DNA of 62,673 nucleotides, the filler included. It is 10 parts of 10 records of this genome, joined end to end, with 100 filler letters (N's around TTAATTAATTAA, not from the genome) between each part and the next. Parts side by side here need not be neighbours in the genome. Positions count along the whole stretch, not along the records: positions 4,137 to 17,765 come from SRR7504441_2535; 9 more parts are not named here. One strand, 5' to 3'. Positions within the stretch are counted from its first letter, which is position 1. Each line of letters starts with the position of its first letter. The translations under genes were made by a program, and so were the position numbers. The notes under the pieces were generated by a model. The model was given only the letters and a program-made list of their open reading frames with translations. It had not been told where the DNA came from and searched no databases. Of the stretch, positions 61-53,424 are shown one piece after another.

Positions 61-3000
61 GTGGTGCGCTGGCTGCCGGTGCAGCAGAAGCGGATGTTGG
101 AGTTTGTGTGGCCGGTCCCGAGCTTCCAACAGTCGATGCTTGACGGGAGCTGCCCTGCAAAGTCTGTTAGAGTTAAGTTAACACTTGATTAATTCGATTG
201 GTTAGGTACATCACGCACCTGCTGGGACACGAGGGCAAGGGGTCGATCCTGGAGAGCCTGAAGCAGCAAGGGTGGGCGACTGCGCTGACAGCCGGACCGT
301 TACAGGTCTTACCCGATTAGGAAATATATAGTGTTAACTTAACGTGGCAGGATGTGAGGGAGTTTTCGCTTTTATTTGTGGGTGTGACGCTCACTCCAGC
401 CGGGCTAGAGAGCTGGGACAAGGTGCTGTTAACTGTGTGACACTAACTGTGCTGACTGGGCCCTTGCACAAGGTGGCTGAGTGTGTCATGGCCTACATTG
501 CCATGCTCCACAGCCAAGGCCCACAGCGGTGCCCCCACATGCCTTCTAGTCAGCAATGAGCCGTGACACTGCAGATGGGTGTACGACGAGTGCAAGGCGG
601 TGCAAGAAATGGCCTTCCAGTTCGCCTCAAAGCAGGGCGCCTTTGACTACTGCACGCACCTCGCTTGCAACATGCAGGCGCCATCAATCAACCGACGACC
701 ATACCAACACCATTTGGCAGGTCTATCCTCCAGAGGAGACGGTCTCGATAGATTACTCAATGAAAGGCTTCGACCAAGCGAGCATCCAAGCAATCATGGC
801 CTCGCTTCTGCAGTTAAAGTCGCTCCGGCTCTTCCTGGCGGCTCCGGAGTTCTCAGCTCAGATCGACTCAATGTCTCCGGAGAAATGGTACGCCACCTTC
901 CTAATCAGGAAACTAGCTTAACACCTTCCTAATTAGGAAAACTGTCTAGCTTAACATGTCTGCTGCAGGTACGGCACCATGCACAGCTCCACTCCATTTA
1001 CAGAGGACCAAATCCAGCGGTGGGACCCGACCCAATCCGACAAGAGCGGTGTTAACACCTCCTTCCTAATTAGGCAATGACCTGTTAACCCAGGCGAGTA
1101 CGGCCTTTCGCTCCCTCCAGAAAACAAGTTCATCAGCACCGATTTCACGCTGGTCGAAGGCAAATCGGAGCCGAGTGTGCTTCTCCTGTCAGAGTCTGAT
1201 AGCCATCGGCTGTGGCATAAACTGGACGGCGAGGGCGGAGCGTTCGGACTGCCAAAGGTATGTTAACACCTTCCTAAAAGGGGAATAACCGGTTAATGTC
1301 AGGTGTCTGTTAATATTCAGCTCAAATTGCCGCTCGGGTATGCATCAGCCAGGCAAGAGACTGGCCTATATGTAATGCAGTGATTAATCTGAATTTGGCT
1401 TTTCCAGACACGCTGTGCACGCCAAGCTGCTGTCGCTAGTTGCCACCGACGCCCTGGCCGAGCTGGCGTACGACGCCGAGGTGGCTTAACAGTTTGTCCA
1501 AATCAGGCAGTGGCTGTTAACAGGTCGCGGAGCTCAGCTACAGCCTCAGCCACAATCCGGCTGGGCTCCGACTCAGAGTGGCTGGATACAACCACAAAGT
1601 CCCCGAGCTACTCCAGGTAACTGCCCAATCAGTTTCAAATTTGAATTCAGATATTAATCTCGGCGGCAGATTGTGATGCGGCAGCTGACCTCTACAGCCA
1701 ACGAGAGCTCGGCGCAGCGGTTTAACGATCAGTTGGAGAAGTATAAGCAAGAGCTCGGAAACTTCTTCCTGGGCCAGCCTTACTCCGTGTGCGACTACGA
1801 GCTGGGGGTGGCTCGACTAGTTAACACATGTTTAACTGTTTAAGCGCAGGTTTTGCTGGAAGATGGCAAGTATCACATCAGCCAATACCTCCAGGTGCCT
1901 GGACCTTCTTACAAGAAAGGAACTAAGTAAGTGTCTCGTCAGGTTCTCGACACAGTTACTCACGACGAATTCGGCCGCTTCTGCCAGCAGCTGCTCGGCC
2001 TTGGCTTCACAGAAATGCTAGTACACGGTCAGTCAACCGCCACCTTCCTAATTAGGCTAACTGTGGTAACAGGCAACATGTCGGCTGCGGCTGCGGCCGA
2101 GCTGTGTGAGCAAACTGAGGCCGAGCTCCGACGTGGCTGCGGGACTGCTTCCTGCCTTGAAGCCGACTTAACTGGTCGGCGGGCCGTTGTTCTCCCCATC
2201 GGTAATCCCCAACCGCCATTTTAACAGCATTTTAACTGTCACTCAGGCGAGGCGCGATATCATACGAGTGTGGCCAACCCTGACGAGGCCAATTCGTGTA
2301 TCGAAGTCTATATGCAGCTCTGCTGGCAGTCGCTGCACGACGGTGCTCTCCGCCACCTTCCCGATTAGGCATCGATGACTGTTAACAACGACAGGCGCGC
2401 TGCTGGAGCTGCTGGCTGAGCTGATCCGAGACGACTGTTTCGAGACGCTCCGCACCCAGCAGCAGCTCGGGTACATCGTCTGGTACACAGCCAGTCAGGG
2501 CCGGCCGAGGGGTTCGGTTCAGGTCCGGATCGCATCTGGCCAATCACGTCTCCGGCTTCCGGGTATTATTATAATCAATACCATAAGTATCTAGCTCTGT
2601 GGTGCCTGTGACTTGAGTGCACTGAGGAAGAAGCCAGGTGATTGTGCAATCGGACAACACGCCGCCGGAGCAAGTCTACGATCGGATATTCGACTTCCTC
2701 GACTCGCACCGCGCCGGTCAGGCCTTAAATCCATATAGATCTATATACACTAACTACTATATATGCATAAGTGTTTAGTACTGGCTCTATAGTATAGCAA
2801 CTTGCCCTTCTGAGTATGAGTGCTGGGGGCAGGTGTGCTGGAGGAGATGTCGGAGGATGATTTCTGTGAGATCCGCAACTCGCTCGCAGCCAAGAAGCGA
2901 CAGAAGGAGGACAACCTGAGCCAAGAGACCTCCAAGCACTGGGCCGAGATCGACGCCGGGGTGACTGCTCCTACCCCTTCCACTGGCCAGCAGCTGGTCT

Positions 3001-3656: not shown

Positions 3657-4036
3657 TGACTGTTCGATCAGATGTACAGGAGACGCGGTTAGGCTTCGTA
3701 CGAGTAATCGTTCTGCGCGATGCATGAATGTAAAAATTGTTCTATCCGTACTAATCGCTTAGCTTTGCATTGAAAACCCATTCGCTTACATGAATCGTTG
3801 TAGCGTAGACATGGATCATAATTATATAATTTCGATTTGACTATTCGCTAGCGCTGAATTAATTCGTGATTACGTCACTAGAAAGCGCTTATTATACCGC
3901 AAGAGGTGCAGACAACTGAGCTCCTCATTGATATGAATGTGCACGGGATCGTTCCCATATTGGCATAATCAAAAGGCTGCAATGCCACGGCCTTGCTCAG
4001 TTGCCCGAGCCCGGCCCTTTCTCAAAGTCGAACCCG

Positions 4037-4136
4037 NNNNNNNNNNNNNNNNNNNNNNNNNNNNNNNNNNNNNNNNNNNNTTAATTAATTAANNNNNNNN
4101 NNNNNNNNNNNNNNNNNNNNNNNNNNNNNNNNNNNN
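4037..4136. other. Artificial contig spacer (N44-TTAATTAATTAA-N44); same spacer at 17766-17865, 33095-33194, 37371-37470, 41293-41392, 44980-45079, 50312-50411, 53425-53524, 58925-59024
   Basis: Identical 100-nt blocks with a six-frame stop linker. Genes are truncated at these points. Confidence 0.98.
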
Positions 4137-4249
4137 GCCAGGGTGAGCGTCGAGCCGGCCGCGCAGTCCAATGCGCAGAGGGCCAGCACAGCCCGCAAAC
4201 TGGAACCCGCCAAAGCTTTGGCCGCCATACGCGTTGTGATCCCCACCAT
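4137..4249 (-). CDS. 5' end of a probable secreted protein (signal peptide only; truncated by the gap)
   Basis: MVGITTRMAAKALAGSSLRAVLALCALDCAAG..., head-to-head with the gene at 4303. Confidence 0.5.
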
Positions 4250-7944: not shown

Positions 7945-8080
7945 TCTGCAAACGGTGAAAATCATCACTGCAATGTCGGTTATGCACAGGCAACCGGCGC
8001 AGGCGCAGGCCGGCTTCGCGCCCGGATGGACCCCAAACATCCCGGGGTTCCCGTCGGCGGTGACCGCCTACCCGCGCGCG

Positions 8081-9635: not shown

Positions 9636-10547
9636 TCATCGCAAGTTTGCCCGGAAGGCGAGGAATCCAAGCGCACAGCTTTGAAATATGCAGGCAAACA
9701 TATACATATAGAGTGGAAACATGGCAAAGTACCATGCGACCTGCCCCCCGTTTAGCCAGCCAAGGGCAGGCAGCTGACCGTATACAGATCTTCCGAGCAA
9801 TTTTTCACATAGATCACATAATAGTAGAAATGTAGAATGTTCCACAAGGCCACCAGCGCAATGGCCATCATCATGAGTGCCAAGAACATGATCAGCCCCA
9901 CCAGCACCAGTCTCATCCTCGGCCTATCGGACACATCAATCAACGGCCCATAGCTCTCGTCCTCGAGCAAATACTCGCCCGTCTCTACATCAAACCACTC
10001 CTGGTCCCGCGCCCGCCTGAAGCAGTTGGGCACGAGGTTCTCTATCAGCCCATGCTGCGCGACACACTGGAGCAGGAGCAACACTCCGCAGAGTTGCAGA
10101 CAGCATTTGCCATAGGTTCTCATAGTCCGCGCGATCGGATAGTCACACGACTCGTCCCTGTACTTGTTGCCATAGTAAAAACAAATGATTCCGACCGCGG
10201 CCGTGAAGGACACAGTCAACAGCATCACCATCACCATTCGCACCATCCCGCCCGCGAAATTGCGCACGTCCTCCGAGTCCTGCGCGTCCCGCCGGCTCTT
10301 GGCCGCATAAAATCGCTCGCGCACGCGCCCCCTGATCGCCCGGTCCACCTCTAGCATCGCCCGGCAGGACAGCGCCACCCTGGCCCCCGGCTCGTCCAGC
10401 CGCCTGTTGCTCGACGCACCGGATCTTATCGCGCATCGGCAGGAACGAGCCGATAATGCTCCGGAGCCCCTCCGGCAGCCGGTCAAACGGTCCCGCAGCC
10501 TCCAGCCCGTCGAGCCCCTCGAGAGCCACATACTCACCCTCGGCCAT
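9636..10547 (-). CDS. F-box-like domain plus four-TM (TMEM272-like) membrane protein, 2 introns
   Basis: Spliced PFDRLPEGLRSIIGSFLPMRDKIR|VALSCRAM fits the F-box consensus. Four hydrophobic segments follow, with GNKYRDESCDYP and CSEDLYT loops. Confidence 0.7.
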
Positions 10548-10620
10548 GGTTGGTCCTGCGCCGACACCGCAGCCCGCGGGCAACTGCTGGCGAGAGTAAC
10601 GGCATTTTGCGAAGCAATGC
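10528..10620. promoter_or_regulatory. Bidirectional promoter module, copy 1 (between the ATGs at 10547- and 10617+)
   Basis: Only 69 nt between divergent start codons; homologous to 12338-12430. Confidence 0.7.
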
Positions 10621-12197
10621 TTGTGCTCCTGGTCGGGCTCATTTGCGCAGCCCTCACCAGCGGTGCACCTCCACCGCTCGGGCATCGAGTGTACACCTAC
10701 GAGGCCAATGCATCGCTCATCGGGTTGGCTGCTTTCAATGCCGCCGATTCCAAGCCGGCCAACATCAGTGTAGTGAATGCCTACGGCGGCTGGCTCACTC
10801 GCTCTCTGACCGCCCTGACGGTAGAGTGCCGCGGTGCGGCCAGCGACAAGCCTGGGATTGAGGTTGCCGTGTCAAACCACCGTCCAGGCTCTGTGGCGGT
10901 GCTCGCCTGCGCCTCCGACGGCTGTGAGAAGGCGACATACATCAAATGCGCCCGAAGTTTGCCTGGGGGCGGGGCGGTGGCCACGCTGCGCTTGCCGCCG
11001 AACCTCCACTACATGGTCTTCACCGACGCTGATGGTTCGTGGGAGCAGGAGTGCTGGCCTTCGGAGTACGGGTCTTTCCCGCCGATCTCGCTCCCCATGA
11101 AGGACCCGAAGACGGAATGCACCTCGCCCACGGGCCCGGTGCCCACACCGAAGCCGCTTCCGGCGCCACCCGCCGCGGCCTACGACCTCCGGCTGGAGCC
11201 GGCCGCATCGCGACTGGCGGCAGGCGGCAGCGGCCAAGACCTGCTGCAGGCGGACATTGAGTCCTTCGCGGGGGTGGACGGAGTGACCGCGGTGACGGTG
11301 GTGATCGATGGCCGGATGGACCTCTGCGACGAGTACGACCAGTACGGCATGCAAAATCGCTCCCTGTTCCCGTGCGATTCTTCGCCGGACCTCACTAGCG
11401 TACCTGACTCGGCCCTTGGTGCGGTTGCGGACCAGATTGCCCTGGCAGTATGCGCCCACCCAGCCGTCGCCGGAGTGCAGGTGGACCTGGAGCCGTTCGG
11501 CGGTCGATTCGCGGCCCCGCTCGTTCGTTTGCTCAAGTACACAGCTGCGGCCCTAGCCGGCGGCCATGCGAGCTGCAAGGACGGATCCGGCTACCCCAAT
11601 GGGCGGTCAGTCTCAGTGTTTGCCTTTGCTGAAAGCGTGGCCGCGGCCCCGGAGCTGCTAGAGGCGCTGGGTCCGAATGGGTACGTAGTGGTCTCTGGCT
11701 ACGATCTGTACCCCAAGTCCAACGATACGGCCTTCAACACGCCTGCTGAGTACACCAGCAAGCTCCAACGACAAATCGGCGAGGCCAAGCGCACTCTTGG
11801 CTCCGGGGAGATCGGCACTGCGGCGTGCAAGGTGCCGTGGGTCCTGGGTGTGCCCATGGCCGCCAGTGCCCATGAATACGAGGAGTACCGCCCGAGCGAC
11901 AAGTACTGCGGGCCGGCATGTACAGCTTTCCACAACCCAGCAAAGATGGCCAACTATACCTCGGCGGCGATGGACGTGGTCGGAGCCAGTCTTGTGGACG
12001 CCGCTGGCCGAATCAACCAGACGAGCTGCTTTCGCGGACTGGCGCTGTGGAAGTGGGCGGCGGTGGAAGGCACTGCTGGTGCAGCTGCTGGCGGGGACTA
12101 TCCTCCGAAGTCCGGGAATACGTGGGCTCCAGTGACAGTGTCGAGGGATGCGCTGGCTGTGCTGGCGGCGCGATTGCCAGCGACCACCACGCCGTAG
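10617..12197 (+). CDS. Secreted protein, possible GH18-like TIM-barrel glycoside hydrolase
   Basis: Signal peptide MLVLLVGLICAALTSG, Pro-rich linker, AGVQVDLEP (resembles GH18 DxxDxDxE), VSGYDL and GLALWKW. Confidence 0.55.
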   Translation: MLVLLVGLICAALTSGAPPPLGHRVYTYEANASLIGLAAFNAADSKPANISVVNAYGGWLTRSLTALTVECRGAASDKPGIEVAVSNHRPGSVAVLACASDGCEKATYIKCARSLPGGGAVATLRLPPNLHYMVFTDADGSWEQECWPSEYGSFPPISLPMKDPKTECTSPTGPVPTPKPLPAPPAAAYDLRLEPAASRLAAGGSGQDLLQADIESFAGVDGVTAVTVVIDGRMDLCDEYDQYGMQNRSLFPCDSSPDLTSVPDSALGAVADQIALAVCAHPAVAGVQVDLEPFGGRFAAPLVRLLKYTAAALAGGHASCKDGSGYPNGRSVSVFAFAESVAAAPELLEALGPNGYVVVSGYDLYPKSNDTAFNTPAEYTSKLQRQIGEAKRTLGSGEIGTAACKVPWVLGVPMAASAHEYEEYRPSDKYCGPACTAFHNPAKMANYTSAAMDVVGASLVDAAGRINQTSCFRGLALWKWAAVEGTAGAAAGGDYPPKSGNTWAPVTVSRDALAVLAARLPATTTP

Positions 12198-12337
12198 CAT
12201 ACGTACTAGTTGAGGTTTGCTGATAGTTTGCTGACCGTCATACCACTTGCAAGTGCTCCCGTCATTATAGAATAGTTCCTAGAATAGTTCCTGCAAAGTC
12301 CCCGCCCGTTTTCAATAGAATAGATGCGGAATACAAA

Positions 12338-12430
12338 ACATACTTTACCTCGGCCATGGTTGGTCCTTGCTGGCGTGACCCGCTCGACGTGGGGCACTGG
12401 CGATGAGTAACGGCATTTGTGAAGCGATGC
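12338..12430. promoter_or_regulatory. Duplicated promoter module, copy 2 (upstream of the nucleoside hydrolase)
   Basis: Shares ACATACT..CCTCGGCCATGGTTGGTCCT and CTGGCGA(T)GAGTAACGGCATTT(T)GYGAAGCRATGC with 10528-10620; both copies are 93 nt. Confidence 0.8.
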
Positions 12431-13476
12431 ATAGGCTGTTCCCGTGCTTGTTGGTCTGCCTGCTCGTGCGGGCTGAGGTGCCGCACCTCATCATCGATAC
12501 GGACATGAGCACCGACTGCGACGACGTGGCTGCACTGTGCATCGCGCACCAGCTGGAGCGGCGCGGCGAAGCCCGGCTTATCGGAGTGCTGCACAACACA
12601 GGGCTCCCGACCGGAGTAGGCGCCATCTCCGTAATCAACACCTTCTACGGCCGGCCGGAGATACCGATCGGGGCGTGCAAGGGTCAGTTCGGCGCCCAAA
12701 TGGCCGGAAGCTACGTCAACGACCTTGTGCGCAGGCGAGCTCCCCCCTGCAGCCGAGCGAGCTTCTGGCGCAGGTACCCGAGTTCCATCAAGAACTACAC
12801 ACAAGTGCCGGAAGCGGTGCAGGTGTACCGGCAGGTGCTGGCCGCCCAGCCGGATCGGTCGGTAAGCGTGGTCTCGATCGGGTTCCTGACTAACCTGCGG
12901 GCGTTGCTCGGCTCGGGCCCGGACCAGCACAGCAAGCTCGACGGGAAGGTGCTGGTGGCGCGCAAGGTGGCCGAACTGGCCTGGATGGGCGGCAAGTACC
13001 CGGCCTCCAACGGAAGCCCCGAGTGGAACTTTGGGGGAGGCTACCCGATCGGGCAGAACCACTCAGTCAGCTCGTCCGCGACAGCAGCTGTGCTGGCCGA
13101 GCTCCCGACCACTGTGCGGGTGGTGTTCTCCGGGTTTGAGGTCGGAATACAGATCCAAACCGGCGGCCGTCTGAGCAGCTGCGCCAATGCGACCAACCCA
13201 TGCCGGCAGGCGTTCATAGACCATCAGGGCTACAAGAAGAGCCGCGCATCATGGGACCCAGCGACGACTCTGATGGCAGTGCGCGGCGGCGGGCAGCTTG
13301 GCAGCGTGTACACGGTGGATGGAGTAGGCGGGCGCAACACGGCAAGCCCGGTGAGCGGGGACAATGCATGGCTGAACGGCACGGGCTCCAACCAGTCTTA
13401 TGTGGAGCTAGCTTCCCCGGCCTCGGCTGTGACAATAGGAGATGCGATAGACGACCTGCTATGTGCCGGAGCTTAG
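12427..13476 (+). CDS. Secreted inosine/uridine-preferring nucleoside hydrolase family protein; probable in-frame GC-AG intron 12735-12773
   Basis: Signal peptide, IIDTDMSTDCDDVAAL, VSIGFLTNL, WMGG.YP, EWNF and SWDP motifs. Confidence 0.88.
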   Translation: MHRLFPCLLVCLLVRAEVPHLIIDTDMSTDCDDVAALCIAHQLERRGEARLIGVLHNTGLPTGVGAISVINTFYGRPEIPIGACKGQFGAQMAGSYVNDLVRRRAPPCSRASFWRRYPSSIKNYTQVPEAVQVYRQVLAAQPDRSVSVVSIGFLTNLRALLGSGPDQHSKLDGKVLVARKVAELAWMGGKYPASNGSPEWNFGGGYPIGQNHSVSSSATAAVLAELPTTVRVVFSGFEVGIQIQTGGRLSSCANATNPCRQAFIDHQGYKKSRASWDPATTLMAVRGGGQLGSVYTVDGVGGRNTASPVSGDNAWLNGTGSNQSYVELASPASAVTIGDAIDDLLCAGA

Positions 13477-13529
13477 CGACTTTAAAACTGATTTGAGCGT
13501 TTAGTGAATACGCATAAGGCATTGTATAG

Positions 13530-14423
13530 TCATCGTAACAAATTGATGTAGTCCGAAGCGATCCGGGTCACCCTCGCCATCACAGCCCGCCGGACCGCCG
13601 GTTTCATCCGGTTCCCGAACATTTGCAGGAACTTGTCCGGGTGCCACCGCCGCAGAATCCGCCTGGCCGCCTGCCGGGTCCTTTTGCTGCTCGGCAGTTC
13701 AGCAAACTCCGGAGGCCACGGCACTTCCCTCTCGTCCCGAATAACCGACTCAGCTTGGGCGAAGTGGCGCCAAGCTTGTTCTCGGCGCGCCGCCTGGGCT
13801 GAAGGGCACTGCCCGGTGCACCCGTTCCCCTCAACTTGAATGTTAAGACTGTCGACGCTCAGCCGCTTACGCTTGCCGGTGAGCCGCACCGCATACCGCC
13901 CTGCGCCCTGGTAGGCTCCCACCCGCACCCTCGTGCCGTTGAGACGCCGGCAGCGACGCAAGTCCCGGAGCTGGGCACCGCAGCGCTCCAGCGGCGCCAC
14001 TTCAGTGCCGTCTACCCACACCGGGTCGCCGGGGCGCAGCTGGCTGCACCCGCACCCGAGCTTCTCTGGCCCGTACACCGCCAGTCTGCACCGGAGCGCC
14101 GGCGTCACACTCCACTCGAGCACGCGCCCGACCGCCGCGCGAGCCGGGGTCCACTCGAGCAGCTGGACCAGACAACCCGGCGGCAGGTCCGGCGGGAGGG
14201 CCGGCGGGCTCTCGGTCGCCTCTCGCAGCAGCTCGGCTTCGGCCTCGATGCACTCCGGGGTGCCGGGCGGCGGCGACTGGCGAGAATGGCGCCGGCGGAC
14301 GCTGCGCAGCCCGGTGCCCGCCGCCCGAGGCTGGTACACGCTCCCTCGCGACATGTGCAGCCCGACAAGTGAACCAGCGGAGGAAGCCGTTGGCGCCGAC
14401 TGGCCGAGGCGCATCGGGCACAT
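13530..14423 (-). CDS. Protein with NFKBIL1-type J-like C-terminal domain (start uncertain)
   Basis: VPWPP...RRILRRWHPDKFLQMFG...VMARVTRIA, preceded by an RRLNGxRVxVxxxxGxGRYAV beta-barrel motif. Confidence 0.65.
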   Translation of the reverse strand: MCPMRLGQSAPTASSAGSLVGLHMSRGSVYQPRAAGTGLRSVRRRHSRQSPPPGTPECIEAEAELLREATESPPALPPDLPPGCLVQLLEWTPARAAVGRVLEWSVTPALRCRLAVYGPEKLGCGCSQLRPGDPVWVDGTEVAPLERCGAQLRDLRRCRRLNGTRVRVGAYQGAGRYAVRLTGKRKRLSVDSLNIQVEGNGCTGQCPSAQAARREQAWRHFAQAESVIRDEREVPWPPEFAELPSSKRTRQAARRILRRWHPDKFLQMFGNRMKPAVRRAVMARVTRIASDYINLLR

Positions 14424-17622: not shown

Positions 17623-17765
17623 TCAGGCAGCTTCTGACATAACCGTGCTTAGAATCTTAGCACCCTCATCGCTGATCTCGTTGCCACTCAGGTCGAGCCA
17701 AGTGACTGCGGAAGAGTTCTTTTCCAGCGCAGCACTCACCCAGACCACCCCCTCATCCGTGATGC
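17623..17765 (-). CDS. 3' end of an LRR protein (truncated by the gap)
   Basis: ITDEGVVWVSAALEKNSSAVTWLDLSGNEISDEGAKIL...*. Confidence 0.75.
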
Positions 17766-17865
17766 NNNNNNNNNNNNNNNNNNNNNNNNNNNNNNNNNNN
17801 NNNNNNNNNTTAATTAATTAANNNNNNNNNNNNNNNNNNNNNNNNNNNNNNNNNNNNNNNNNNNN

Positions 17866-19478
17866 GGTGCGGCCGAGCTGGTGGCGCTCGGGCAGTGGGC
17901 CTGGTCGCGGTGCCAGCCGGGCGGGCGGGCGGTGACGGCGGCGGAGAGGGAGGGGCTGATGGCCGGGCTGATGGAGCAGCTGGAGGCTGGGCCGGAGGGG
18001 GGGCTGGGGTTTGGTCAGTTTGAGGCCTGGCTCAGCCAGTCCTGCGCCGAGATTGAGGCGCCACCAGCCAGCACTGGCAGCCCCAGGCTGGGCGCTGTCG
18101 TAGAGTCGTCCTGGCAGGAGGGTCGCTATGCCGAGGCTGGGAGGGTGGCTCGGCTCGAGCAAGCCTTGACCAAGCTCACCCGACAGCACCAAGAGTGAGT
18201 CCAGCCGGCAGCCGGCCTGTCAGGCGAGGGGTAGGTCGCAAGCTTCAGTCGAGAGGCTCGAGTTTGCTCTTCAGCGCCAAGCTGATGAGACCAAGCAGGC
18301 GAATGCTGCAAAGCTGCAGATGCAGCAAAGCTGTGAAGCGCTTCAGGCCAAGGTGCGTTTGCCCAGTAGCTCCTGCTGATGAGCCTGGTGCCAGGTGGTC
18401 TCTCTGGAGCGCTCCGCGGCATCTAGGCTCTCGCCGACACAGACCGCCAGTTCTGTAACCATCCGACCGAGCCCGCCCGTAGCTAGCGCCGAGCCAGCTC
18501 AGTCGGCTTCGGCCCTCCTGTCGGGGTTTCCATCTGCGCCGACCACACAACTCTCGAGAGCTGCGCTTTCTACCACCCCAGAGCTTCGCTCTGAGGCTCC
18601 AGCTGGCTTGGGCGAGCGGAGTGCTACCTCGCCTGCAGTCTGGCCTGGTAGCTCGGCTGTAGCTGAGCTACTGGCCGAATATGGCCCCCGGATCGGAGCG
18701 CAGTGCAACCAGGACTTTGGATACATGCGCAGCACTGCGGTTCCACGCTCAAGTGCCACCTTGCCTAATGCCTGGCAGGCGCCCGCCAAATCGCCCGCGG
18801 AGCCAACTGACAATCTGCGCTGGACATCACTCATCATTCCGCAGCCGATGGAACAATTAGAGCTCCGTCAGGTCAGCTAGTGGCGAGCGATGCGCCTGAT
18901 CTGCCCGCTGCAGGTGATCGATAGGTTTAAGAAGCAGCAATCGCACTCGGTTCGCCTGACCGGCCGCACCAAAGCCACGCCAGCGCCAAGCAATGCCGTT
19001 GCCAAGCTCCGGCAGCAGTTGAAGAGGAAGCTCCGCACCACATCAACGCTCTTCCTGGCAGCTGACGCCGACCGTAGCAACCAGCTCAGTTTCAATGAGT
19101 TTTCACGAGGAGTCAAAATGATGGGAATTCAACCCACACCGGACGAGATGAAGGAGCTTTGGGATCATCTTGATAGCGATGGCGATGGCAAGATCACCTG
19201 GGACGAGCTATGCAAACTGGATCAGCTCGGCCCAAAGCCTCGGAAAGCCAATAGCCGTAACACCAGCCAGCGCACTGGGCATCAGGTTCAGAGGGCTCGG
19301 CGGCCTGCCAACAAGGGCACTCTGCCACGGACAGCGAGGTTCAGCGACCTGTTCAAGGTGCGCTGTGTGGCCTGGAAGTTTGTAACCGGGCATGCAGGGG
19401 AGTCAGATGGCAGCGACTCTTAGGACCGTGAGGAGTGGAGTGCACCCGAACTCAATGCAACACTACACACTAGCATGA
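17866..19478 (+). CDS. EF-hand calcium-binding protein, 5'-partial, spliced
   Basis: EF-hand pair DADRSNQLSFNE and DSDGDGKITWDE at about 19060-19210. Confidence 0.7.
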
Positions 19479-21021: not shown

Positions 21022-22929
21022 CTAACTATGGTTGTCGATGTTGCCACCACAATCAGAGCACAGCCATTTCGTCGAATTTGTGCCAACTGTGAACTCTAAA
21101 GGCACCTGCAGTGTGGGGATCGCTGCCGTAGCAATAGCCCACCCGCGAGCCTCGAGTGCCCTCACCTCTTCGGCTGTGCGAAAACGATCTTCAGCAATCT
21201 CGCCAGAAGCAATACGGCCTAGGCATTGCGAACACATGTGCCAGAAACCATGTAGGAAAGCCCGCCATGCAGGGAGGCAGGTGGAATCGTTGCATTTCAC
21301 CCGCCATCGCATCTGCAGCCCTCCCATGCTGTTGTCACCATCGGTCGGCCCCCGGGCTATGACATAGTTTCGCGCCACCGCCATCGAGCCTAACTCCTGA
21401 GTAGGGGCCAGCTGCACCGGAAATCGAGCAGCTAATTCCTTGACAGCTGGTGCCCCAGATGCCTTGAGTACCGCACCAATCTCGACGTTTTTCGGCTGCA
21501 AGTTGTCATAACCCCAGCCCGCTTTCGTGAAGTTTTGTGAGCCGACAAATAGCACACCACCAGTACCATCTTGTGATGTCGCAAGCAGTGCTTTGCCGTG
21601 AAGGATCGGCGTCAATGCATCTGCTTCGCAACGGTCAAACTTGGGGAGTGAATCATAAAAGTGATTATTGAGGACTGTCGTGTCCGACTTTGAGCTTGGG
21701 GCAGTAGTTCGCAGCACGGCAAAGCTATTTGTCTGGGGCGCCAAGACAGTCGCCCGAGAAGAGTGATATAAAAAGCAGCTGCCAATGGTCTCCCACTCAT
21801 CTTCACCTGCCGATGGCGGTCGACGGCGAAGTGTGGATGCCATCTGTGAGAGGAAATTGGGATGTATCTGGCCGTAGTGACCTGTGGCGATGTCTAGCCT
21901 TCCATCCGTCTGTGGTGCATCTATCTCGTCGAGGGCTCGCTGCAGCTGCAACCAGCCGCCCTTATCAACACCATTTGGGCCACCAGGCATGCAGGTGACT
22001 AGTGCACATGTAGTCTTCTGAAAGTCTACGCCATAAATCACATCAGTGCAGTGCATGTCCACCCATCGCTCATCTTGTGGCGGTAGACCGCTGTATGGCA
22101 GGTACTGAAGGAATCTCTTCAGTCGAGCCCCGAAGTGAGGGCAGCTGTCAGGAGTGGCGGTATCGACAACAGGGAAGTCTTGGACAAAGAGTGAGTCTCT
22201 GTCCAGCTCCATCTGACCGTCTAGATTCGTTCCACCTAGGGCCACGCGCAAGAGCGAACCAGTACGGAACAGCATGAGCGAGCAGTGCATGATGCCTGCC
22301 TTTTTTTGACCCTCCAAGACATACCAACCAGCACCACGCTCCCGTAGTGTGGGTGCCCTCCATGGCTTCGCCGGCGGGCACCTCTCAGCGATAAGAAGGA
22401 CGCGCCGGATGGAATCAGATGATTTCTTGCGGAGCCACTCATAAGATCTGTCCGGGAAGAGGCTCGTGAAGACAGCTGACTCACAGCCAGCAGGGACCAA
22501 GTCGGACCAGGAGACATGCCGGTGCGATGGGACCTCGCCTGGCATGAGGTTCATGTAGGCCTGTCCGACGCTGAAGTCGTGCGTGCCCAGCTGCGGCGCG
22601 GCCTGAACCACAGCTGGCGCGGCCTCGTGCTCAGGCTCCGCTACTGGCTGCGGCTGGGCGGCGGCCGCGCTGCTGACGGGATACATGCTCACCTGCGCTG
22701 CTGCTGGGCCATCCCTGGGTTTACGGCTTGCTCGTTTGCGTTTGCGCGGCGGCGGCGCTTTGGGCTCCTCATCTTCGCTCGACACTGGCTCAATGAGGTA
22801 GGCAACTGACGGCTGGGCCGGCGGCGGGGGCGGGCTGGCCGCCTGGTGCGCGTCGCAGACCTCGCACCGCTCGTTGCCCCCGGTGTTGTGGTAGGTGCAC
22901 ATAGCGCAGACCCACCCTCCGGGCACCAT
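21022..22929 (-). CDS. RanBP2/NZF zinc finger plus tyrosyl-DNA phosphodiesterase 1-like (PLD superfamily) protein
   Basis: WVCAMCTYHN....RCEVC; first motif MHCSLMLF..LRVALGGTNL; FVQDFP; second motif LHGK...FVGSQNFTKAGWG...NVEIG. Confidence 0.82.
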   Translation of the reverse strand: MVPGGWVCAMCTYHNTGGNERCEVCDAHQAASPPPPPAQPSVAYLIEPVSSEDEEPKAPPPRKRKRASRKPRDGPAAAQVSMYPVSSAAAAQPQPVAEPEHEAAPAVVQAAPQLGTHDFSVGQAYMNLMPGEVPSHRHVSWSDLVPAGCESAVFTSLFPDRSYEWLRKKSSDSIRRVLLIAERCPPAKPWRAPTLRERGAGWYVLEGQKKAGIMHCSLMLFRTGSLLRVALGGTNLDGQMELDRDSLFVQDFPVVDTATPDSCPHFGARLKRFLQYLPYSGLPPQDERWVDMHCTDVIYGVDFQKTTCALVTCMPGGPNGVDKGGWLQLQRALDEIDAPQTDGRLDIATGHYGQIHPNFLSQMASTLRRRPPSAGEDEWETIGSCFLYHSSRATVLAPQTNSFAVLRTTAPSSKSDTTVLNNHFYDSLPKFDRCEADALTPILHGKALLATSQDGTGGVLFVGSQNFTKAGWGYDNLQPKNVEIGAVLKASGAPAVKELAARFPVQLAPTQELGSMAVARNYVIARGPTDGDNSMGGLQMRWRVKCNDSTCLPAWRAFLHGFWHMCSQCLGRIASGEIAEDRFRTAEEVRALEARGWAIATAAIPTLQVPLEFTVGTNSTKWLCSDCGGNIDNHS

Positions 22930-23112
22930 GATCTTCCGGTCTTTGAGCCTGCACACACACACCTGCGCATGCACACTGCAGCACAAGTGCTGCATCGGAA
23001 GCGCTGGTTGAGCGGTTGAGGGGAGGTGGGGTCGGTACTCGGGATACAAGAAAAACAAAGGGGATCGACGCGTCTCGTAGGATATCTGTTGGAGACTTGC
23101 GTATAAAATAGG

Positions 23113-23213
23113 ATGCATCCGATTTGGCACCGCCAGGCGCCGGCCATGGCGCCGGCTTAGACTCAACTTCACGAATAAATTTACGAGTAGCTATATATGC
23201 ATCCGATTTGGCA
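23113..23213. repeat. 17-bp direct repeat ATGCATCCGATTTGGCA flanking a 67-nt spacer
   Basis: Exact copies at 23113-23129 and 23197-23213. Confidence 0.85.
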
Positions 23214-26040: not shown

Positions 26041-27638
26041 CTAGAACACATAGGGCAGGATCCTGTACGGCACAACCTCACAGTACTGCCGAAACCCTTC
26101 GCCGTACTTGGTGGAGCACTTGATCTCATCCCTATAGCACCGGTGCACTAGGAGCACCGTCAGAAACAGAGGGTAGCCAAACGCGACTAGATTGTGCCCG
26201 GGGCCTCCCGCGAGCATGGCCCACGACCAGGCAGCCAACAACTCGAAAAAGTAGTGGAAATGCCTGGCCACTCCCCAGTAGCCGGAAGCGAGCAGCTTGG
26301 AGGTTTGAATTTTGGTTGTGCCATTTGGCTGGACCGCACGGTATTTGGCTTGGATGTACTTGGCCGGCTTGCCCCAGACCAGCTCTGTGCCGTTGGACTG
26401 CCTGAAGCTCATTTTCTGCTCGTCGGCCAGGAAGTTGCCCAGCAGCCCGATCACGCTCAAGCAGAACAGAAGCCCAGCGGACGACCAGGACAGCTCAGAC
26501 GGTGAGAGCACTGCAGCGCGCATGTACACCGTGTACAGTGTTGGCACGATCGCTAGGCAGCCGTACGTCTCATAGAAGCCGGCCCGGTCGTCTGTGATAT
26601 CCATGGTGGCAAGGTATCCAGCCTCCCACCAGAAGAACTTGACCAAATAGGCCGCGGTCGATGCTGCGGCCAGCACGAGCCCAGGGTCCCAACGGCCGTG
26701 CATCTCATGCGACTTGCACGCGAATGAGATCCCGGAGACCATCCAAAAGGTCATGGAGAAACGGCAATTGACAAAGTGCTGCACATGCCACCAGTCAGCC
26801 TACGGGGTCAGCACGGTAACTAGTGCGTGCTGCGGGGCGTCACCTTGACGTCGACTCCCATGATGCGAGGGTAGAGCTCAGCGCCCCAGTAGTAGTCGAA
26901 GAGCACCCCCTTGCCCGAAGAGCCGCTGTCCGGGCCAGACGGGGCGTAGAGCCCTTTGAGGAGCAGCAGGGCGCAGAACAAGATCCCAAACGCATTGAGC
27001 ACGATGTTGATTGCAGGGAATAGGTCGAACATCAGGCCCATGTCGTACAGCCCGCCCATCGTGCCGCCCAGCACAAAGCTGGCCACGAACAGCACCATGT
27101 GCGGCATCGCATTGTCCACATACGCCGGCACGTGGCCCTTTGGGCTCACCGGGCCGTTGAATGCTCGGCCGGGCATCGCCGCGAAGAGCAGCCCGGCCAG
27201 TCCCCCGAACCCAAGCAGGAACTGAACAGCTGGCCAGAGCTCAGCCGCCCCGAGATTGGCGGCCTGGCCCAGGCAGCCGGCCACACCGGCGTCGGCGCAC
27301 AGCTGGCTGAAGCCGCTCATGCTCTTGACGGCCGGATCGTTGGTGATGAGGCAGAGCACCATCATGGCCAGTGGGCAGGCCGGGATCAGGAACAGAGGGA
27401 GCAGCACCGTGTGCACAAACGGCGGCAGGCTGTAAGGAGCCTCCTGCTCGTCCGGTATCGGCTCGGGTTGGGCTTGGGTGGCGGCGGCGGTGGCAGCGGC
27501 GGTGGGGATGGTCCCGGTGGCGATCGAGGCCGGTGGTTGGACCACCTTCGGAGGCGTGTTCATCTCCTTGGACCACTCGACGCCGCTGGTCTTGCCGGCA
27601 AGCCGCCGGGATCTCCGCGATGGTGAATGATCAGCCAT
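26041..27638 (-). CDS. DHCR7: 7-dehydrocholesterol (delta7-sterol) reductase, ERG4/ERG24 family; intron 26779-26843
   Basis: GPVSPKGHVPAY, DYYWGAELYPR..DVK|HFVNCRF, KFFWWEAGYLATMDI..DRAGFY, LLASGYWGVARHFHY and RDEIKCSTKYG. Confidence 0.92.
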
Positions 27639-28927: not shown

Positions 28928-30145
28928 TCACTTGAATTGGGTCATCAAATAGTCGTAGGTCGGCCTCTCGTCGTCTATCGTCAGCCCAAGCTCTTGCCGC
29001 CTAGCTTCGAGCAATCGTTGCTGCAACTCAAGACGCAGCCCCCTCGTGGAGAGCCCTCTTCGGGCCAGCTCAGCCACAAGCATCGGAATCGACTCGAGCC
29101 TCTGATCCACGTACCCTCCCGTAGCCGCCTGGACCACATGCCGCTGCGCAAAGCAGCCAAACTCCCGAGCCGGATTCACTCTGCTGAAGAGAGTCAACCG
29201 GCCCCCGTCCTCGGGCTCGACCCAGTCTCTGGGCTTGAGCCGAGCCCGCCAGCTGTGCCAGCCCATCCCGAGCCATCGGCGCCGCCATAGCTGGAGCGCC
29301 CTGCCGACAAGCTCCGGGTTGAGAGGCTCCCGCACCACCGGATGCTGCCAGGTATTCCAAGCGGCGGCGAGCGCCCTATTAGACCACACTGCCCACACGC
29401 GGCGCAGCAGCATCAGTCCGTGCAGACAGCGCGCCCGCCAGCTGTTCCAGCCCCGCGCTAAGTCGCGTAGCAGCCAAAACCTGGCCGCGCGCTCCATAGC
29501 CAGGCTGGCACCTGATGATTGGTACCATGATCGCCAGGCCTGCCAGAGCAGCCGATTGCGCCACGCCCAGAGCGCCAGACGCATCGCAGCGAGGCGCGAC
29601 CGGCCGATGATCAAGGCGAGCCGCCATCGGTTCCATCCGCACAGCAGCCAGCGGCGGAGCCACAGCTCAAGCGCGTTGCGCATGATTTCAGCCCGTCGGT
29701 CAGGCCACTGATTGGCCAGCGCGCCCGATAGGTACAGCGACCGCCACTGGTTCCACACGCGCAGCAGCCACCGGTGCAGCCACATTTGGAGCGCGCGGCG
29801 CGCGGCAGCGAGCTGGGTTTCTGCAGCCAGATGGAGCGACCGCCACTGGCTCCAGGCCCGACCCAACATGGCCCGCAGCCACCGAGTCAGCGCCCGAGCC
29901 AGCAGGGCCTCCTGGCGCAGGTTCGGCCAGGCGAGCGCCCCGGCCCGGTACAGGCCGATCCAGGTCCTCCAGGCGGGCGCCACTGCCGAGAACCTAAAGT
30001 AGCTGGCGGCTAGGTGAGCCGAGCAGAGGTGGTGGCGCCAGGAGAGTGTGGTGCTGAAGCAGCCCCAGGCCCCGCACAGATTGGCCTCCAGGCTGACTAT
30101 TGCAGGCCCGAACAGTCCGTCCTCCTCCTCGGGCTGCCGATCCAT
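28928..30145 (-). CDS. Sfi1-like (centrin-binding) repeat protein with C-terminal SAP-like domain
   Basis: About 7 repeats of RALxxWxxRxLxxxWxxWR; C-terminal LVAELARRGLSTRGLRLELQQRL. Confidence 0.7.
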   Translation of the reverse strand: MDRQPEEEDGLFGPAIVSLEANLCGAWGCFSTTLSWRHHLCSAHLAASYFRFSAVAPAWRTWIGLYRAGALAWPNLRQEALLARALTRWLRAMLGRAWSQWRSLHLAAETQLAAARRALQMWLHRWLLRVWNQWRSLYLSGALANQWPDRRAEIMRNALELWLRRWLLCGWNRWRLALIIGRSRLAAMRLALWAWRNRLLWQAWRSWYQSSGASLAMERAARFWLLRDLARGWNSWRARCLHGLMLLRRVWAVWSNRALAAAWNTWQHPVVREPLNPELVGRALQLWRRRWLGMGWHSWRARLKPRDWVEPEDGGRLTLFSRVNPAREFGCFAQRHVVQAATGGYVDQRLESIPMLVAELARRGLSTRGLRLELQQRLLEARRQELGLTIDDERPTYDYLMTQFK

Positions 30146-33047: not shown

Positions 33048-33194
33048 CTGCACAGGAGCGGTCAGGGGGGGGGGGGCGGCCTGGTGCAGATGCCNNNNNN
33101 NNNNNNNNNNNNNNNNNNNNNNNNNNNNNNNNNNNNNNTTAATTAATTAANNNNNNNNNNNNNNNNNNNNNNNNNNNNNNNNNNNNNNNNNNNN

Positions 33195-37318: not shown

Positions 37319-37470
37319 TACAAAATAATGCCATTAATAATTTTTAAAAACAGTTAGCCAGTGGTACAAANNNNNNNNNNNNNNNNNNNNNNNNNNNNNN
37401 NNNNNNNNNNNNNNTTAATTAATTAANNNNNNNNNNNNNNNNNNNNNNNNNNNNNNNNNNNNNNNNNNNN

Positions 37471-41212: not shown

Positions 41213-41392
41213 TTCAATCGGATTTAAAGCCGCATTGCGGGCGCTCCGCCGCGATGACGGCTAGGAGAGCTTCCGTGAGGGACTGGTACGATNNNNNNNN
41301 NNNNNNNNNNNNNNNNNNNNNNNNNNNNNNNNNNNNTTAATTAATTAANNNNNNNNNNNNNNNNNNNNNNNNNNNNNNNNNNNNNNNNNNNN

Positions 41393-41618
41393 TCGGCCTT
41401 GGCCTCCAGCAGCAGCTTCACCGCAGCGGTCTCCGCGTTGAAAGCTGCCCAATGCAGCACCGAGGCCCCAGCCTGGCCCAGCTCTGCCCCCTCCGGCGGT
41501 GCGAGCGCACCGGGTCCTTGCACATTAGCACTTCAGCCCCGCGCTGATCGAGCAGGGCGCGCAGGGTCGCCGTGTCGCCCTGCTTGGCCGCCTCGATCGC
41601 ACCGTCGGCCGCGGTCAT
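41393..41618 (-). CDS. Ankyrin repeat protein, 5' end (truncated)
   Basis: IEAAKQGD...|GASVLHWAAFNAETAAVKLLLEAKA. Confidence 0.8.
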
Positions 41619-44458: not shown

Positions 44459-44979
44459 ATGGCTCCCGCCTCTGCAGTGGTGATTTTCTGCCACGGCTCC
44501 GGGGACACCGGGCCGGGCGTGCATGCCTGGCTGCAGCAGCTGGACGGCGGGCGGCTGATATCTCGCCTGGAGGCGGCTAACATCGCGCTGGACACGCCCT
44601 CGGCTCGCCCGATCCCCTACGGGCTGGCCGGCGGCGCAGTGAGCTCGGTCTGGTTTGACCGGCCGATCGGGCTCGAGCCCAGCTGCCCGGAGCACGCACC
44701 GTCGGTGAAGGCCTCGGTCCAGCAGCTGGAAGATCGGGTGGCCAGCTGGCGACGGCAGGGGGTGACCAAGATCGCGATCGGGGGATTCTCCATGGGCGGC
44801 GGGGTGCGGCCTGTGGGGTGGCGGGGTCGGGACGGGCGGGGGCAGATCGGGCTGCAAGCAGGGCTTCGGCTGAGCGGACTGGATGCGGTGTTCGGGATGA
44901 GCTGCTATCTTCCGGAGGATTCGGCGGCCTGGGAGTCGGCGGGGCAGGAGTCGCCGCCGGTGTGGATGGCACACGGCGC
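44459..44979 (+). CDS. LYPLAL1: Lysophospholipase-like 1 / acyl-protein thioesterase, 3'-partial
   Basis: VIFCHGSGDTG, PY....SVWFDR, CPEH, GGFSMGG nucleophile motif and MAHG. Confidence 0.88.
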
Positions 44980-45110
44980 NNNNNNNNNNNNNNNNNNNNN
45001 NNNNNNNNNNNNNNNNNNNNNNNTTAATTAATTAANNNNNNNNNNNNNNNNNNNNNNNNNNNNNNNNNNNNNNNNNNNNGCACACCGACCGGCGCTGACC
45101 TTGTGGGCAG

Positions 45111-50189: not shown

Positions 50190-50411
50190 ACGGATGGATT
50201 ACAGTAATGCTCAAGCAGACTACTCGTATATAGCGCGTACAAGCGGACTGATGTCAAGTGTGAGCTGCTTCGAGTTCCGTTGACAGTTGATGTCTTGGCG
50301 TACTTGACGGTNNNNNNNNNNNNNNNNNNNNNNNNNNNNNNNNNNNNNNNNNNNNTTAATTAATTAANNNNNNNNNNNNNNNNNNNNNNNNNNNNNNNNN
50401 NNNNNNNNNNN

Positions 50412-53400: not shown

Positions 53401-53424
53401 AAGTCCGCCTCTCGCCGAAGGTCG
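50412..53424 (-). CDS. Multidomain protein: CxxC zinc ribbons, coiled coil, DCD domain, tyrosine-kinase-like pseudokinase C-lobe, C3HC4 RING; both ends truncated
   Basis: GFVFLCNDET|EQECIDRKLFGLP...ALFLYN...AW.GRFPAQ (DCD); HGDLAAR|S, VRWMAPE, KTDVYTFGV|VLWEIWS, CW....DRPSF; CIVCFER...IPCGHVCVCVEC. Confidence 0.82.

What the first reader, a model, noticed from the sequence alone, without database searches (positions are those of the whole stretch)
10528..12430. Duplicated bidirectional promoter/start-codon cassette drives two unrelated secreted-enzyme genes in tandem
Seen: 10528-10620 and 12338-12430 are homologous 93-nt segments. They share ACATACT..CCTCGGCCATGGTTGGTCCT and CTGGCGA(T)GAGTAACGGCATTT(T)GYGAAGCRATGC around a more diverged middle. 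Copy 1 spans the first codons of the minus-strand F-box gene (MAEGEYV), the 69-nt intergenic region and the ATG of the GH18-like gene. Copy 2 keeps the minus-strand start as a dead 30-codon stub (MAEVKYV...*) and supplies the ATG of a non-homologous nucleoside hydrolase. Clear homology ends at about the plus-strand ATG. Almost all other genes here are head-to-head pairs, and this is one of the few tandem junctions. Inference: new, possibly horizontally acquired, intron-poor enzyme genes are installed by copying a neighbour's promoter and start codon, and perhaps the start of its signal peptide. That would be a cassette-like gene-capture mechanism.
Basis: partly seen in the sequence, partly recalled or inferred. 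Interest (0 to 1): 0.75.

Follow-up and report, generated by a model that had tools for sequence, protein, structure and literature searches.

The report
Duplicated start region flanking inserted gene
A 93-base stretch that holds the shared start region of two back-to-back genes occurs twice, on either side of a 1.7-kb enzyme gene, in an uncultured marine protist; it is most likely the scar of a single DNA rearrangement that left two unrelated genes with copies of one control region, a neat example of a known kind of event.

Summary
10528-10620 and 12338-12430 are direct copies (Smith-Waterman score 45 against 9.0±1.5 in shuffles; self-blastn E 4e-9). Block A matches at 27 of 30 positions and block B at 31 of 35 columns. 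The 29-nt middle is unalignable, and both outer edges are sharp.

The copies bracket exactly one gene body: codon 2 to the stop of a TIM-barrel hydrolase-like ORF, plus a 140-nt AT-rich trailer. The two plus-strand genes are unrelated. Both belong to old, widespread eukaryotic families of signal-peptide proteins, and their base composition is native. Horizontal transfer is therefore not supported.

Among 375 pairs of upstream regions in the window, only this pair is alike. A recurrent "cassette" mechanism is therefore not shown.

My best reading (0.45) is a one-off insertion of the hydrolase-like gene into an older divergent pair, with a 93-nt target duplication. The direction of the event, the dead middle and promoter activity remain untested, because no genome, close relative or bridging read was available.

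The scan has noted analogous duplicated start regions around inserted genes before, in bacteria.

The parts
9752..10547 (-). Exon 1 is 10547-10420, a 40-nt GT..AG intron is 10419-10380, and exon 2 is 10379-9752. It encodes a small protein with hydrophobic segments.
   Evidence: ORFs are. The intron comes from a poly(A) RNA contig (X6, record 13) that covers 10419-10550. Its 10-nt loose end equals 10369-10378, and splicing restores the reading frame. Pfam finds nothing on either exon alone. Exon 2 has no homologues.
10528..10620 (+). Copy 1 of the 93-nt module. Block A is 10528-10557 (codons 1-7 and start context of the minus-strand gene). The middle is 10558-10586. Block B is 10587-10620 and ends in the ATGC of the plus-strand gene.
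10597..10603 (+). TAACGGC, a Myb-type word, 14 nt before the ATG at 10617. It lies inside block B.
Evidence: the word occurs 40 times in the window against 23.5±4.8 expected. My crude positional test was not significant.
10617..12197 (+). Gene 1: an uninterrupted 526-aa ORF with a signal-like N-terminus. It is a TIM-barrel glycoside-hydrolase-like protein of a family that has no Pfam model.
10621..12337 (+). The 1,717-nt segment between the two copies. It runs from gene 1 codon 2 to the stop, plus a 140-nt AT-rich trailer (12198-12337). This is the presumed inserted DNA.
   Evidence: It holds no mobile-element gene and no long A run at its 3' end.
12338..12430 (+). Copy 2 of the 93-nt module. 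Block A is 12338-12367, the middle is 12368-12396, and block B is 12397-12430.
12265..12357 (-). Dead stub: a copy of the minus-strand gene's ATG and first codons. It runs 30 codons into gene 1's trailer and then stops.
12408..12414 (+). TAACGGC word of copy 2, 13 nt before the ATG at 12427.
12403..13476 (+). Gene 2: a nucleoside-hydrolase-family ORF. The ATG at 12427 is in register with the copy 1 ATG. An in-frame upstream ATG at 12403 exists only in copy 2.

Best explanation
This is the scar of one local DNA rearrangement, not a gene-capture device.

Proposed history (inferred):
1. An older head-to-head pair, the minus-strand orphan gene and the nucleoside-hydrolase gene, shared a 69-nt spacer.
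2. A 1,717-nt piece carrying the body and trailer of the TIM-barrel hydrolase-like gene entered at a break whose two strand cuts lay about 93 nt apart. A replicative template switch would give the same product.
3. Filling in the overhangs duplicated the 93 nt between the cuts.
4. The left copy stayed joined to the minus-strand gene and now precedes the newcomer. The newcomer was joined at or next to the ATG; ATGC is shared at that joint.
5. The right copy stayed joined to the nucleoside hydrolase. It carries a useless copy of the minus-strand gene's first 7 codons, which is the stub.

Each plus-strand gene therefore has its own copy of the tiny control region, including a Myb-type TAACGGC word 13-14 nt before the ATG. 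The two are probably co-regulated.

Shown: the repeat, its sharp edges, the contents of the interval, the non-homology of the two genes, the closed stub, and that the minus-strand gene appears spliced in a poly(A) RNA library of a related strain.

Inferred: which gene came later, the break-repair mechanism, that the 93 nt act as a promoter, and co-regulation.
For: - The direct repeats have abrupt ends, and the flanks outside them are unrelated.
- The interval is exactly one gene body plus a trailer, with no other gene.
- The layout (copy, insert, copy) is what a single insertion with a target duplication produces.
- Gene 1 has the shortest N-terminal segment of its family: 18 residues before PPLGHR against 20-28, by my count on 7 of the 14 homologues in A2 that carry an N-terminus. 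It also lacks a charged n-region, as expected if a 5'-truncated gene was fused to a borrowed ATG. Gene 2 keeps a normal MHR-hydrophobic start like its relatives.
- The module is unique in the window.
- A second duplication that spans a start codon lies in the same window. An exact 17-mer occurs twice, 84 nt apart, around 67 nt of other DNA, at 23113 and 23197. Exact repeats of 17 nt or more within 3 kb number 5, against 0.07 in 40 shuffles.
- Earlier unchecked notes on this genome report introns flanked by 19- to 39-nt target duplications.
- Published precedents exist. Insertions at staggered breaks leave flanking direct repeats (PMC4202315, passages read). Gene insertions with target duplications from over 30 to about 400 bp and no mobile-element genes are described in bacteria (PMC2853133, passages read). 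Fill-in at overhanging breaks makes duplications (PMC8355091, abstract read).
Against: - A fresh target duplication should diverge evenly. Here the middle 29 nt is no better than random (7 of 29) while the blocks are 89-90% alike. This needs either a later patch replacement or selection on the two blocks. I cannot tell which.
- 93 nt is far longer than the 4-12 bp repeats of the Daphnia cases.
- No empty site, donor copy or close relative was found. The best relatives are 45% and 55% identical, and the metagenome scan gave one chance bacterial hit.
- No read or contig bridges either copy, so the assembly is unverified.
- The evidence for direction (signal-peptide length) is weak.
- Promoter function rests on position and on one short word, whose link to gene starts I could not reproduce significantly in this window (5 of 28 ORF starts; 64 of 1000 random placements do as well).
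Confidence: 0.45

Rival explanations
1. The minus-strand gene and gene 1 are the older pair. Their 93-nt start region was copied (for example by a template switch) and pasted in front of the nucleoside-hydrolase gene, replacing its own start. In the strong form, this is a recurrent way of installing genes.
For: It predicts the same repeat structure. The stub shows that copy 2's block A is not original coding sequence there. A near-copy of the start of block B (TGCTGGCG[A/T]GA) sits off register inside copy 2's middle, which could be a templated-repair scar; 84 of 2000 shuffles do as well.
Against: Gene 2 has a normal n-region, whereas gene 1 has the clipped one. Recurrence is not seen: 1 of 375 upstream-region pairs. 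Neither enzyme shows a sign of foreign origin. A paste that also deletes the old start needs two joints.
Confidence: 0.2
2. Tandem duplication of the 1.81-kb unit (module plus gene 1), followed by a deletion that removed the second gene 1 copy and fused the second ATG to the nucleoside-hydrolase ORF.
For: Tandem duplication followed by remodelling deletion is a common route to promoter capture. The 1810-nt spacing equals one unit.
Against: It needs two events, including a precise in-frame deletion. No remnant of a second gene 1 copy lies after 12430; the similarity there is marginal and out of frame.
Confidence: 0.12
3. Old duplication with two conserved cis-elements. The copies are ancient. 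Blocks A and B survive because both are needed for plus-strand expression (core promoter and leader), and the spacer between them has drifted to randomness at fixed length.
For: It explains the dead 29-nt middle of equal length in both copies. Block B carries the Myb-type word. The two 1-nt indels in block B are of opposite sign, so the upstream ATG at 12403 stays in frame with 12427.
Against: Blocks of 30 and 34 nt are long for protein-binding sites. A poly(A) RNA contig from a roughly 97%-identical strain seems to differ at 3 of the 9 nt just beyond the minus-strand ATG, inside block A. That is one depth-2 contig end, so it is weak. RNA folding gives no structure signal, with z from -1.76 to +1.25. 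This rival concerns the age of the copies and can be combined with any of the origin models.
Confidence: 0.15
4. Assembly artefact of a metagenome-derived scaffold.
For: The window is a chain of contigs joined by N runs with TTAATTAATTAA linkers. No laid contig bridges either copy.
Against: The locus lies inside one contig (about 4150-17739). The copies differ from each other and each has unique flanks. A false join at a repeat would leave one copy, not two. The longest exact shared run is only 20 nt.
Confidence: 0.05
5. Copy 2 is an alternative first exon of the minus-strand gene (ATGGCCGAG followed by GTAAAG), spliced across gene 1.
For: A donor-like GT follows codon 3 in both copies.
Against: The only RNA contig reads straight through that position in copy 1. 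The one intron seen is 40 nt, against the roughly 1.8 kb needed. By my reading, the nearest acceptor-like site would put the two ATGs out of frame.
Confidence: 0.03

Closest known systems
Insertion with long target duplication (restriction-modification genes in bacteria; Furuta, Abe and Kobayashi 2010, PMC2853133, passages read)
   Same: One or a few genes with no transposase or integrase are flanked by direct repeats much longer than transposon target duplications (from over 30 up to about 400 bp). The repeats are copies of one native target sequence.
   Different: Those cases are prokaryotic and were proven by comparison with an empty-site genome. Here the host is a eukaryote, no empty site is available, the repeat spans a divergent start region so that both genes keep a promoter and an ATG, and the middle of the repeat is not alike.
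Insertions at staggered double-strand breaks (Daphnia neointrons, PMC4202315, passages read) and fill-in duplications at overhanging breaks (PMC8355091, abstract read)
   Same: Inserted DNA is flanked by a direct duplication of the target. The mechanism needs no mobile element.
   Different: The repeats there are 4-12 bp and the inserts are short and non-coding. Here the repeat is 93 nt and the insert is a whole gene.
[quoted passage not shown] 2016, PMC4772013, passages read)
   Same: An intronless newcomer placed head-to-head with a resident gene is expressed from that gene's two-way promoter.
   Different: The mammalian cases share one promoter, and nothing is duplicated. Here the promoter region itself is doubled, and I saw no poly(A) remnant and no parent gene.
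Integron gene cassettes
   Same: A promoterless ORF gains expression by landing behind a resident promoter.
   Different: No integrase, no attI/attC-type sites and no array were noticed in the ORFs and Pfam scans I ran; there was no dedicated search. It is one instance only.

Membership tests
Insertion with long target duplication | Direct repeats longer than 30 bp flank the inserted gene(s) | tested here: met
   Copies of 93 nt lie 1810 nt apart. Score 45 against 9.0±1.5, with 0 of 500 shuffles reaching it; E 4e-9. Only the two outer blocks (30 and 34 nt) are alike.
Insertion with long target duplication | A related genome shows the empty site with a single copy of the repeat | not testable with these tools
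   No genome is held. The best protein relatives are 45% and 55% identical. The metagenome scan gave one chance bacterial hit.
Insertion with long target duplication | No mobile-element genes in the insert | tested here: met
   The interval 10621-12337 is one ORF plus a 140-nt trailer. The only Pfam row for that ORF is a sub-threshold Tc5 transposase C-terminal match over 17 residues (19.9 bits against a cut-off of 27.4), which I treat as noise.
Insertion with long target duplication | The repeat is otherwise unique in the genome | tested here: inconclusive
   It is unique within the 62.7-kb window. The rest of the genome is not available.
Retrocopy (mRNA-derived gene copy) | Poly(A) remnant at the 3' end, a short target duplication and an intron-bearing parent gene | tested here: not met
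   Only AAA(A) precedes copy 2. The repeat is 93 nt. No parent copy lies in the window, and the genome could not be searched.
Ordinary tandem gene duplication | The two adjacent genes are homologous | tested here: not met
   BLASTP best E is 0.092. Gene 1 has no Pfam family and a TIM-barrel fold. Gene 2 matches Pfam IU_nuc_hydro.
Dispersed repeat or promoter family | Further copies at other loci | tested here: inconclusive
   None in the window. None among earlier scan notes by sequence. The genome as a whole was not searched.
Recurrent cassette-like gene capture | Several unrelated genes preceded by copies of a neighbour's start region | tested here: not met
   1 of 375 pairs of upstream regions (28 ORF starts) is alike; the next best score is 18 against 45. 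The window holds one further small start-codon duplication (17 nt), but it flanks no gene.
Glycoside hydrolase family 18 (gene 1) | Match to the Pfam GH18 model | tested here: not met
   No Pfam family reaches its threshold.
Glycoside hydrolase family 18 (gene 1) | (beta/alpha)8 barrel closest to GH18 structures | tested here: inconclusive
   The model has pLDDT 87.2. The best match is Z 18.1 to a class V chitinase (263 residues aligned, rmsd 3.9), but GH1 (Z 17.4) and GH5 (Z 17.1) are tied within 1. Foldseek TM-scores are only about 0.28.
Glycoside hydrolase family 18 (gene 1) | Catalytic DxxDxDxE motif (recalled from my own knowledge) | tested here: inconclusive
   The family-invariant residues Q288, D290 and E292 (QVDLE) resemble the last part of the motif. 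No structure-based residue mapping was done.
Inosine-uridine nucleoside hydrolase (gene 2) | Pfam PF01156 above its gathering score | tested here: met
   37.5 bits against a cut-off of 34.2, E 2.9e-9. 505 homologues were found, and most of the 120 listed carry PF01156.
F-box protein (minus-strand gene) | Pfam F-box domain | tested here: inconclusive
   No hit on either exon alone. The putative motif is split by the 40-nt intron, and the spliced product was not submitted to any tool.

The most novel reading that the evidence does not exclude
In this protist lineage, divergent genes share control regions of under 100 nt. Break repair with long target duplications may be a regular way of slotting a gene into a head-to-head pair without orphaning either partner. 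The doubled start region would then be the general footprint of gene-order change in the lineage, and the two conserved blocks would mark its minimal two-way promoter. Hints: a second, 17-nt duplication spanning a start codon lies in this window, and earlier unchecked notes describe target-duplication-flanked introns in the same genome.
Probability: 0.12. Interest if true: 0.6.

Novelty: new member of a known kind. Interest (0 to 1): 0.3.

Why it matters
In a genome this compact, the two start codons of a divergent pair are 69 nt apart. Any insertion between them should strip one partner of its promoter. Here a duplication of the whole start region avoided that, and at the same stroke gave an unrelated gene a promoter and a start codon.

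The locus is a clean natural example of promoter capture in an uncultured eukaryote. It also marks two short blocks, one carrying a Myb-type word, as candidate elements of a minimal two-way promoter.

It does not show a new mechanism of gene acquisition.

Tried and rejected
- Whole genome: none is held, so no genome-wide copy count was possible.
- Metagenome scan with the exact 20-mer of block A: one hit, L001. It is a bacterial-looking gene start that shares only those 20 nt, so I treat it as chance. The viral collection gave 0 hits.
- Public runs: 7 listed, all with small shares of 0.05-0.09. I laid 4 of the 7 (X1, X3, X5, X6). They gave 13 short contigs, no joints, and nothing bridging either copy or the 11244-12365 interval. 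There is therefore no evidence either way on the assembly or on an empty-site allele.
- Template for the two middles elsewhere in the window: none.
- Middle as an inversion: 10 of 29 positions match, by my own count. Rejected.
- RNA structure in either copy, on either strand: z from -1.76 to +1.25. Rejected, including a small hairpin over the ATG that I had drawn by eye.
- Extension of homology into the signal peptides: score 18, reached by 2 of 500 shuffles, and by 0 of 391 and 8 of 391 real coding segments. It is gappy, 27 nt off register and out of frame. Inconclusive.
- Foreign composition: gene 1 has GC 0.651 and GC3 0.750; gene 2 has 0.640 and 0.791. Both lie inside the range of the other ORFs on the contig. 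Rejected.
- Homologues of the minus-strand gene (exon 2): none.
- Other self-similar pairs in the window are coding repeats. 61455/61726 lies inside ORF 60065-62671, alongside an acidic repeat at 42.8-43.4 kb and coiled-coil repeats at 33.6-36.3 kb.
- Literature: the search for 'promoter duplication' / 'unrelated genes' / 'bidirectional promoter' listed nothing on a doubled promoter serving unrelated genes. That is one search of an open-access library, not proof of absence.
- Earlier-notes look-up by sequence: nothing.
Full report
**What the window is.** The 62.7-kb window is a chain of contigs joined by N runs around a TTAATTAATTAA linker; there are nine joins (family D1). The locus lies inside one contig (about 4150-17739). 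No whole genome is held. Earlier notes of this scan describe the source as an uncultured marine protist, perhaps a telonemid. I did not test that.

**The repeat is real.**
- 10528-10620 and 12338-12430 are direct copies, 1810 nt apart.
- Block A (30 nt) matches at 27 of 30 positions, with three adjacent mismatches and a 20-nt exact run.
- Block B (34 nt in each copy) matches at 31 of 35 alignment columns, with two substitutions and two 1-nt indels of opposite sign.
- The 29 nt between the blocks has the same length in both copies but is unalignable: 7 of 29 positions match, and the score is 5 against 6.3±1.3.
- The whole module scores 45 against 9.0±1.5, with 0 of 500 dinucleotide shuffles reaching it. 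Self-blastn gives E 4.2e-9.
- Both outer edges are abrupt. The 120 nt to the left of each copy are unrelated (score 8 against 8.3±1.5).
- To the right of ATGC there is only a marginal, gappy similarity that is 27 nt off register and out of frame. It scores 18, which 2 of 500 shuffles reach. Against real coding segments of the window, 0 of 391 and 8 of 391 do as well.

**Anatomy.**
- Copy 1 holds the first seven codons of the minus-strand gene (ATG at 10547-10545, MAEGEYV), the 69-nt spacer and the ATG of the 526-aa plus-strand ORF (10617).
- The minus-strand gene appears expressed and spliced in a related strain. A contig from a poly(A) RNA library covers 10419-10550, and its 10-nt overhang equals 10369-10378. 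This defines a 40-nt GT..AG intron (10419-10380) that restores the reading frame.
- Pfam does not confirm the F-box label on either exon. Exon 2 has no homologues.
- Copy 2 keeps the minus-strand ATG, but the frame closes after 30 codons inside the trailer of the upstream gene.
- The ATG of copy 2 at 12427 is in register with that of copy 1 and opens the nucleoside-hydrolase ORF. A T present only in copy 2 adds an in-frame ATG at 12403.
- The interval between the copies (10621-12337) is exactly codon 2 to the stop of gene 1 plus a 140-nt AT-rich trailer. It holds nothing else.

**The two enzymes.**
- They are unrelated to each other; BLASTP gives a best E of 0.092.
- Gene 2 matches Pfam IU_nuc_hydro above its threshold. 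It has 505 homologues, the best 55% identical. Named rows include MMETSP and EukProt transcriptomes, Cymbomonas and Monosiga. All 11 that I inspected start with a hydrophobic signal-like segment before the conserved DTD motif.
- Gene 1 has no Pfam family. It has 16 homologues, 31-45% identical in the alignment, from marine metagenomes and one MMETSP transcriptome. All 14 that carry an N-terminus have a signal-like segment before a conserved PPxGHRxYTYQ motif.
- The gene 1 model (pLDDT 87.2) is a (beta/alpha)8 barrel. GH18 chitinases give the best match (Z 18.1, 263 residues, rmsd 3.9), but GH1 and GH5 enzymes are tied within one Z unit. 'GH18-like' is therefore a fair description of the fold and not a family assignment.
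- GC and GC3 of both genes lie within the range of their neighbours.
- Nothing points to recent horizontal transfer.

**Is it a general device?**
- In this window, no. Of 375 pairs of upstream regions (-120 to +6) from 28 long-ORF starts, only this pair is alike: 45, next best 18, mean 10.0±2.7.
- Block A and block B have no further copies.
- The claim that this is a rare tandem junction is overstated. I count about 5 divergent pairs and at least 5 other same-strand neighbour pairs among long ORFs.
- I could not search the rest of the genome. Public runs gave 13 short contigs, none bridging the copies.

**Most likely origin.**
- The layout (copy, one gene body, copy, with sharp edges) is what a single insertion with duplication of the target produces.
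- I therefore read the minus-strand gene and the nucleoside hydrolase as the older divergent pair, and gene 1 as DNA that entered at a break with strand cuts about 93 nt apart, or by a replicative template switch. The shared ATGC would be the joint.
- A weak pointer to this direction is the N-terminus. Gene 1 has the shortest N-terminal segment of its family and no charged n-region, as if clipped and fused to a borrowed ATG. Gene 2 has a normal one.
- Gene insertions with long target duplications and no mobile-element genes are documented in bacteria (PMC2853133, passages). Insertions at staggered breaks with flanking repeats are documented in Daphnia (PMC4202315, passages). Fill-in duplications at overhanging breaks are documented in cultured cells (PMC8355091, abstract).
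- The same window holds a second duplication that spans a start codon. An exact 17-mer occurs 84 nt apart around 67 nt of other DNA. The downstream copy holds the ATG of ORF 21022-23118, and the upstream copy reads MHI-stop.
- Earlier unchecked notes report introns flanked by 19-39-nt target duplications in this genome, and analogous doubled start regions around inserted genes in bacteria.

**What does not fit.**
- A fresh duplication should be evenly alike, yet the middle 29 nt is random.
- One possibility is that the middle was replaced later. A near-copy of the start of block B sits off register in copy 2's middle, but 84 of 2000 shuffles do as well.
- The other possibility is that the duplication is old and both blocks are held by selection.
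The word is enriched in the window (40 against 23.5±4.8). My crude positional test was not significant: 5 of 28 ORF starts, three of them at this locus, with 64 of 1000 random placements doing as well.
- One depth-2 RNA contig end hints that part of block A varies between strains, which would favour a recent origin. This is weak.
- I leave the middle unexplained.

**Verdict.**
- The 'gene-capture cassette' reading is only partly supported. Promoter and start-codon sharing by duplication is real. Recurrence, horizontal origin and the proposed direction are not shown.
- This is a new example of a known kind of event, namely promoter capture through a duplicated target or join point.
- Its particular interest is that it happened inside a 69-nt two-way start region of a very compact eukaryotic genome.

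Noticed in passing
window 23113-23213: An exact 17-nt direct repeat (minus strand TGCCAAATCGGATGCAT) lies 84 nt apart around 67 nt of unrelated DNA. The downstream copy contains the ATG of ORF 21022-23118(-). The upstream copy reads MHI-stop. It is a second, smaller duplication spanning a start codon, at a same-strand gene junction.
   Followed up: partly
window 10380-10419 (minus strand): A 40-nt GT..AG intron in the minus-strand gene. It is supported by one poly(A) RNA contig whose overhang matches the sequence 40 nt away, and removing it restores the frame.
   Followed up: partly
window 4011-4149, 17740-17878, 33069-33207, 37345-37483, 41267-41405, 44954-45092, 50286-50424, 53399-53537, 58898-59037: Nine N runs, each around a TTAATTAATTAA linker. 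The window is a chain of contigs, so adjacency across these joins need not be real.
   Followed up: yes
window 10617-12197: Gene 1 belongs to a conserved family of signal-peptide, TIM-barrel, glycoside-hydrolase-like proteins of marine eukaryotes that has no Pfam model. Invariant residues include DGRMD, Q-x-D-L-E-P, SGYDL and A-S-x-H-E.
   Followed up: partly
window 890-2370: Five copies of a motif of about 16-21 nt (CACCTTCCTAATTAGG core) are scattered over 1.5 kb.
   Followed up: no
window 61455-61573 and 61726-61842: A 119-nt repeat (76% identity) lies inside the long ORF 60065-62671(-). It is an internal coding repeat, not a promoter duplication.
   Followed up: partly
window 27620-27638, 30144-30145, 8026-8040: The longest-ORF start codons of three divergent pairs overlap or abut. 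This suggests extremely short or overlapping 5' regions, although the true starts are unknown.
   Followed up: no
window 10594 and 12403-12427: The two 1-nt indels in block B have opposite sign and lie 13 nt apart. In copy 2 they create an upstream ATG (12403) and keep it in frame with the ATG at 12427. Copy 1 has no such ATG.
   Followed up: partly
window 13476-13530: Only 53 nt separate the stop codons of the convergent nucleoside-hydrolase gene and ORF 13530-14423(-), so their 3' ends must overlap or be very short.
   Followed up: no
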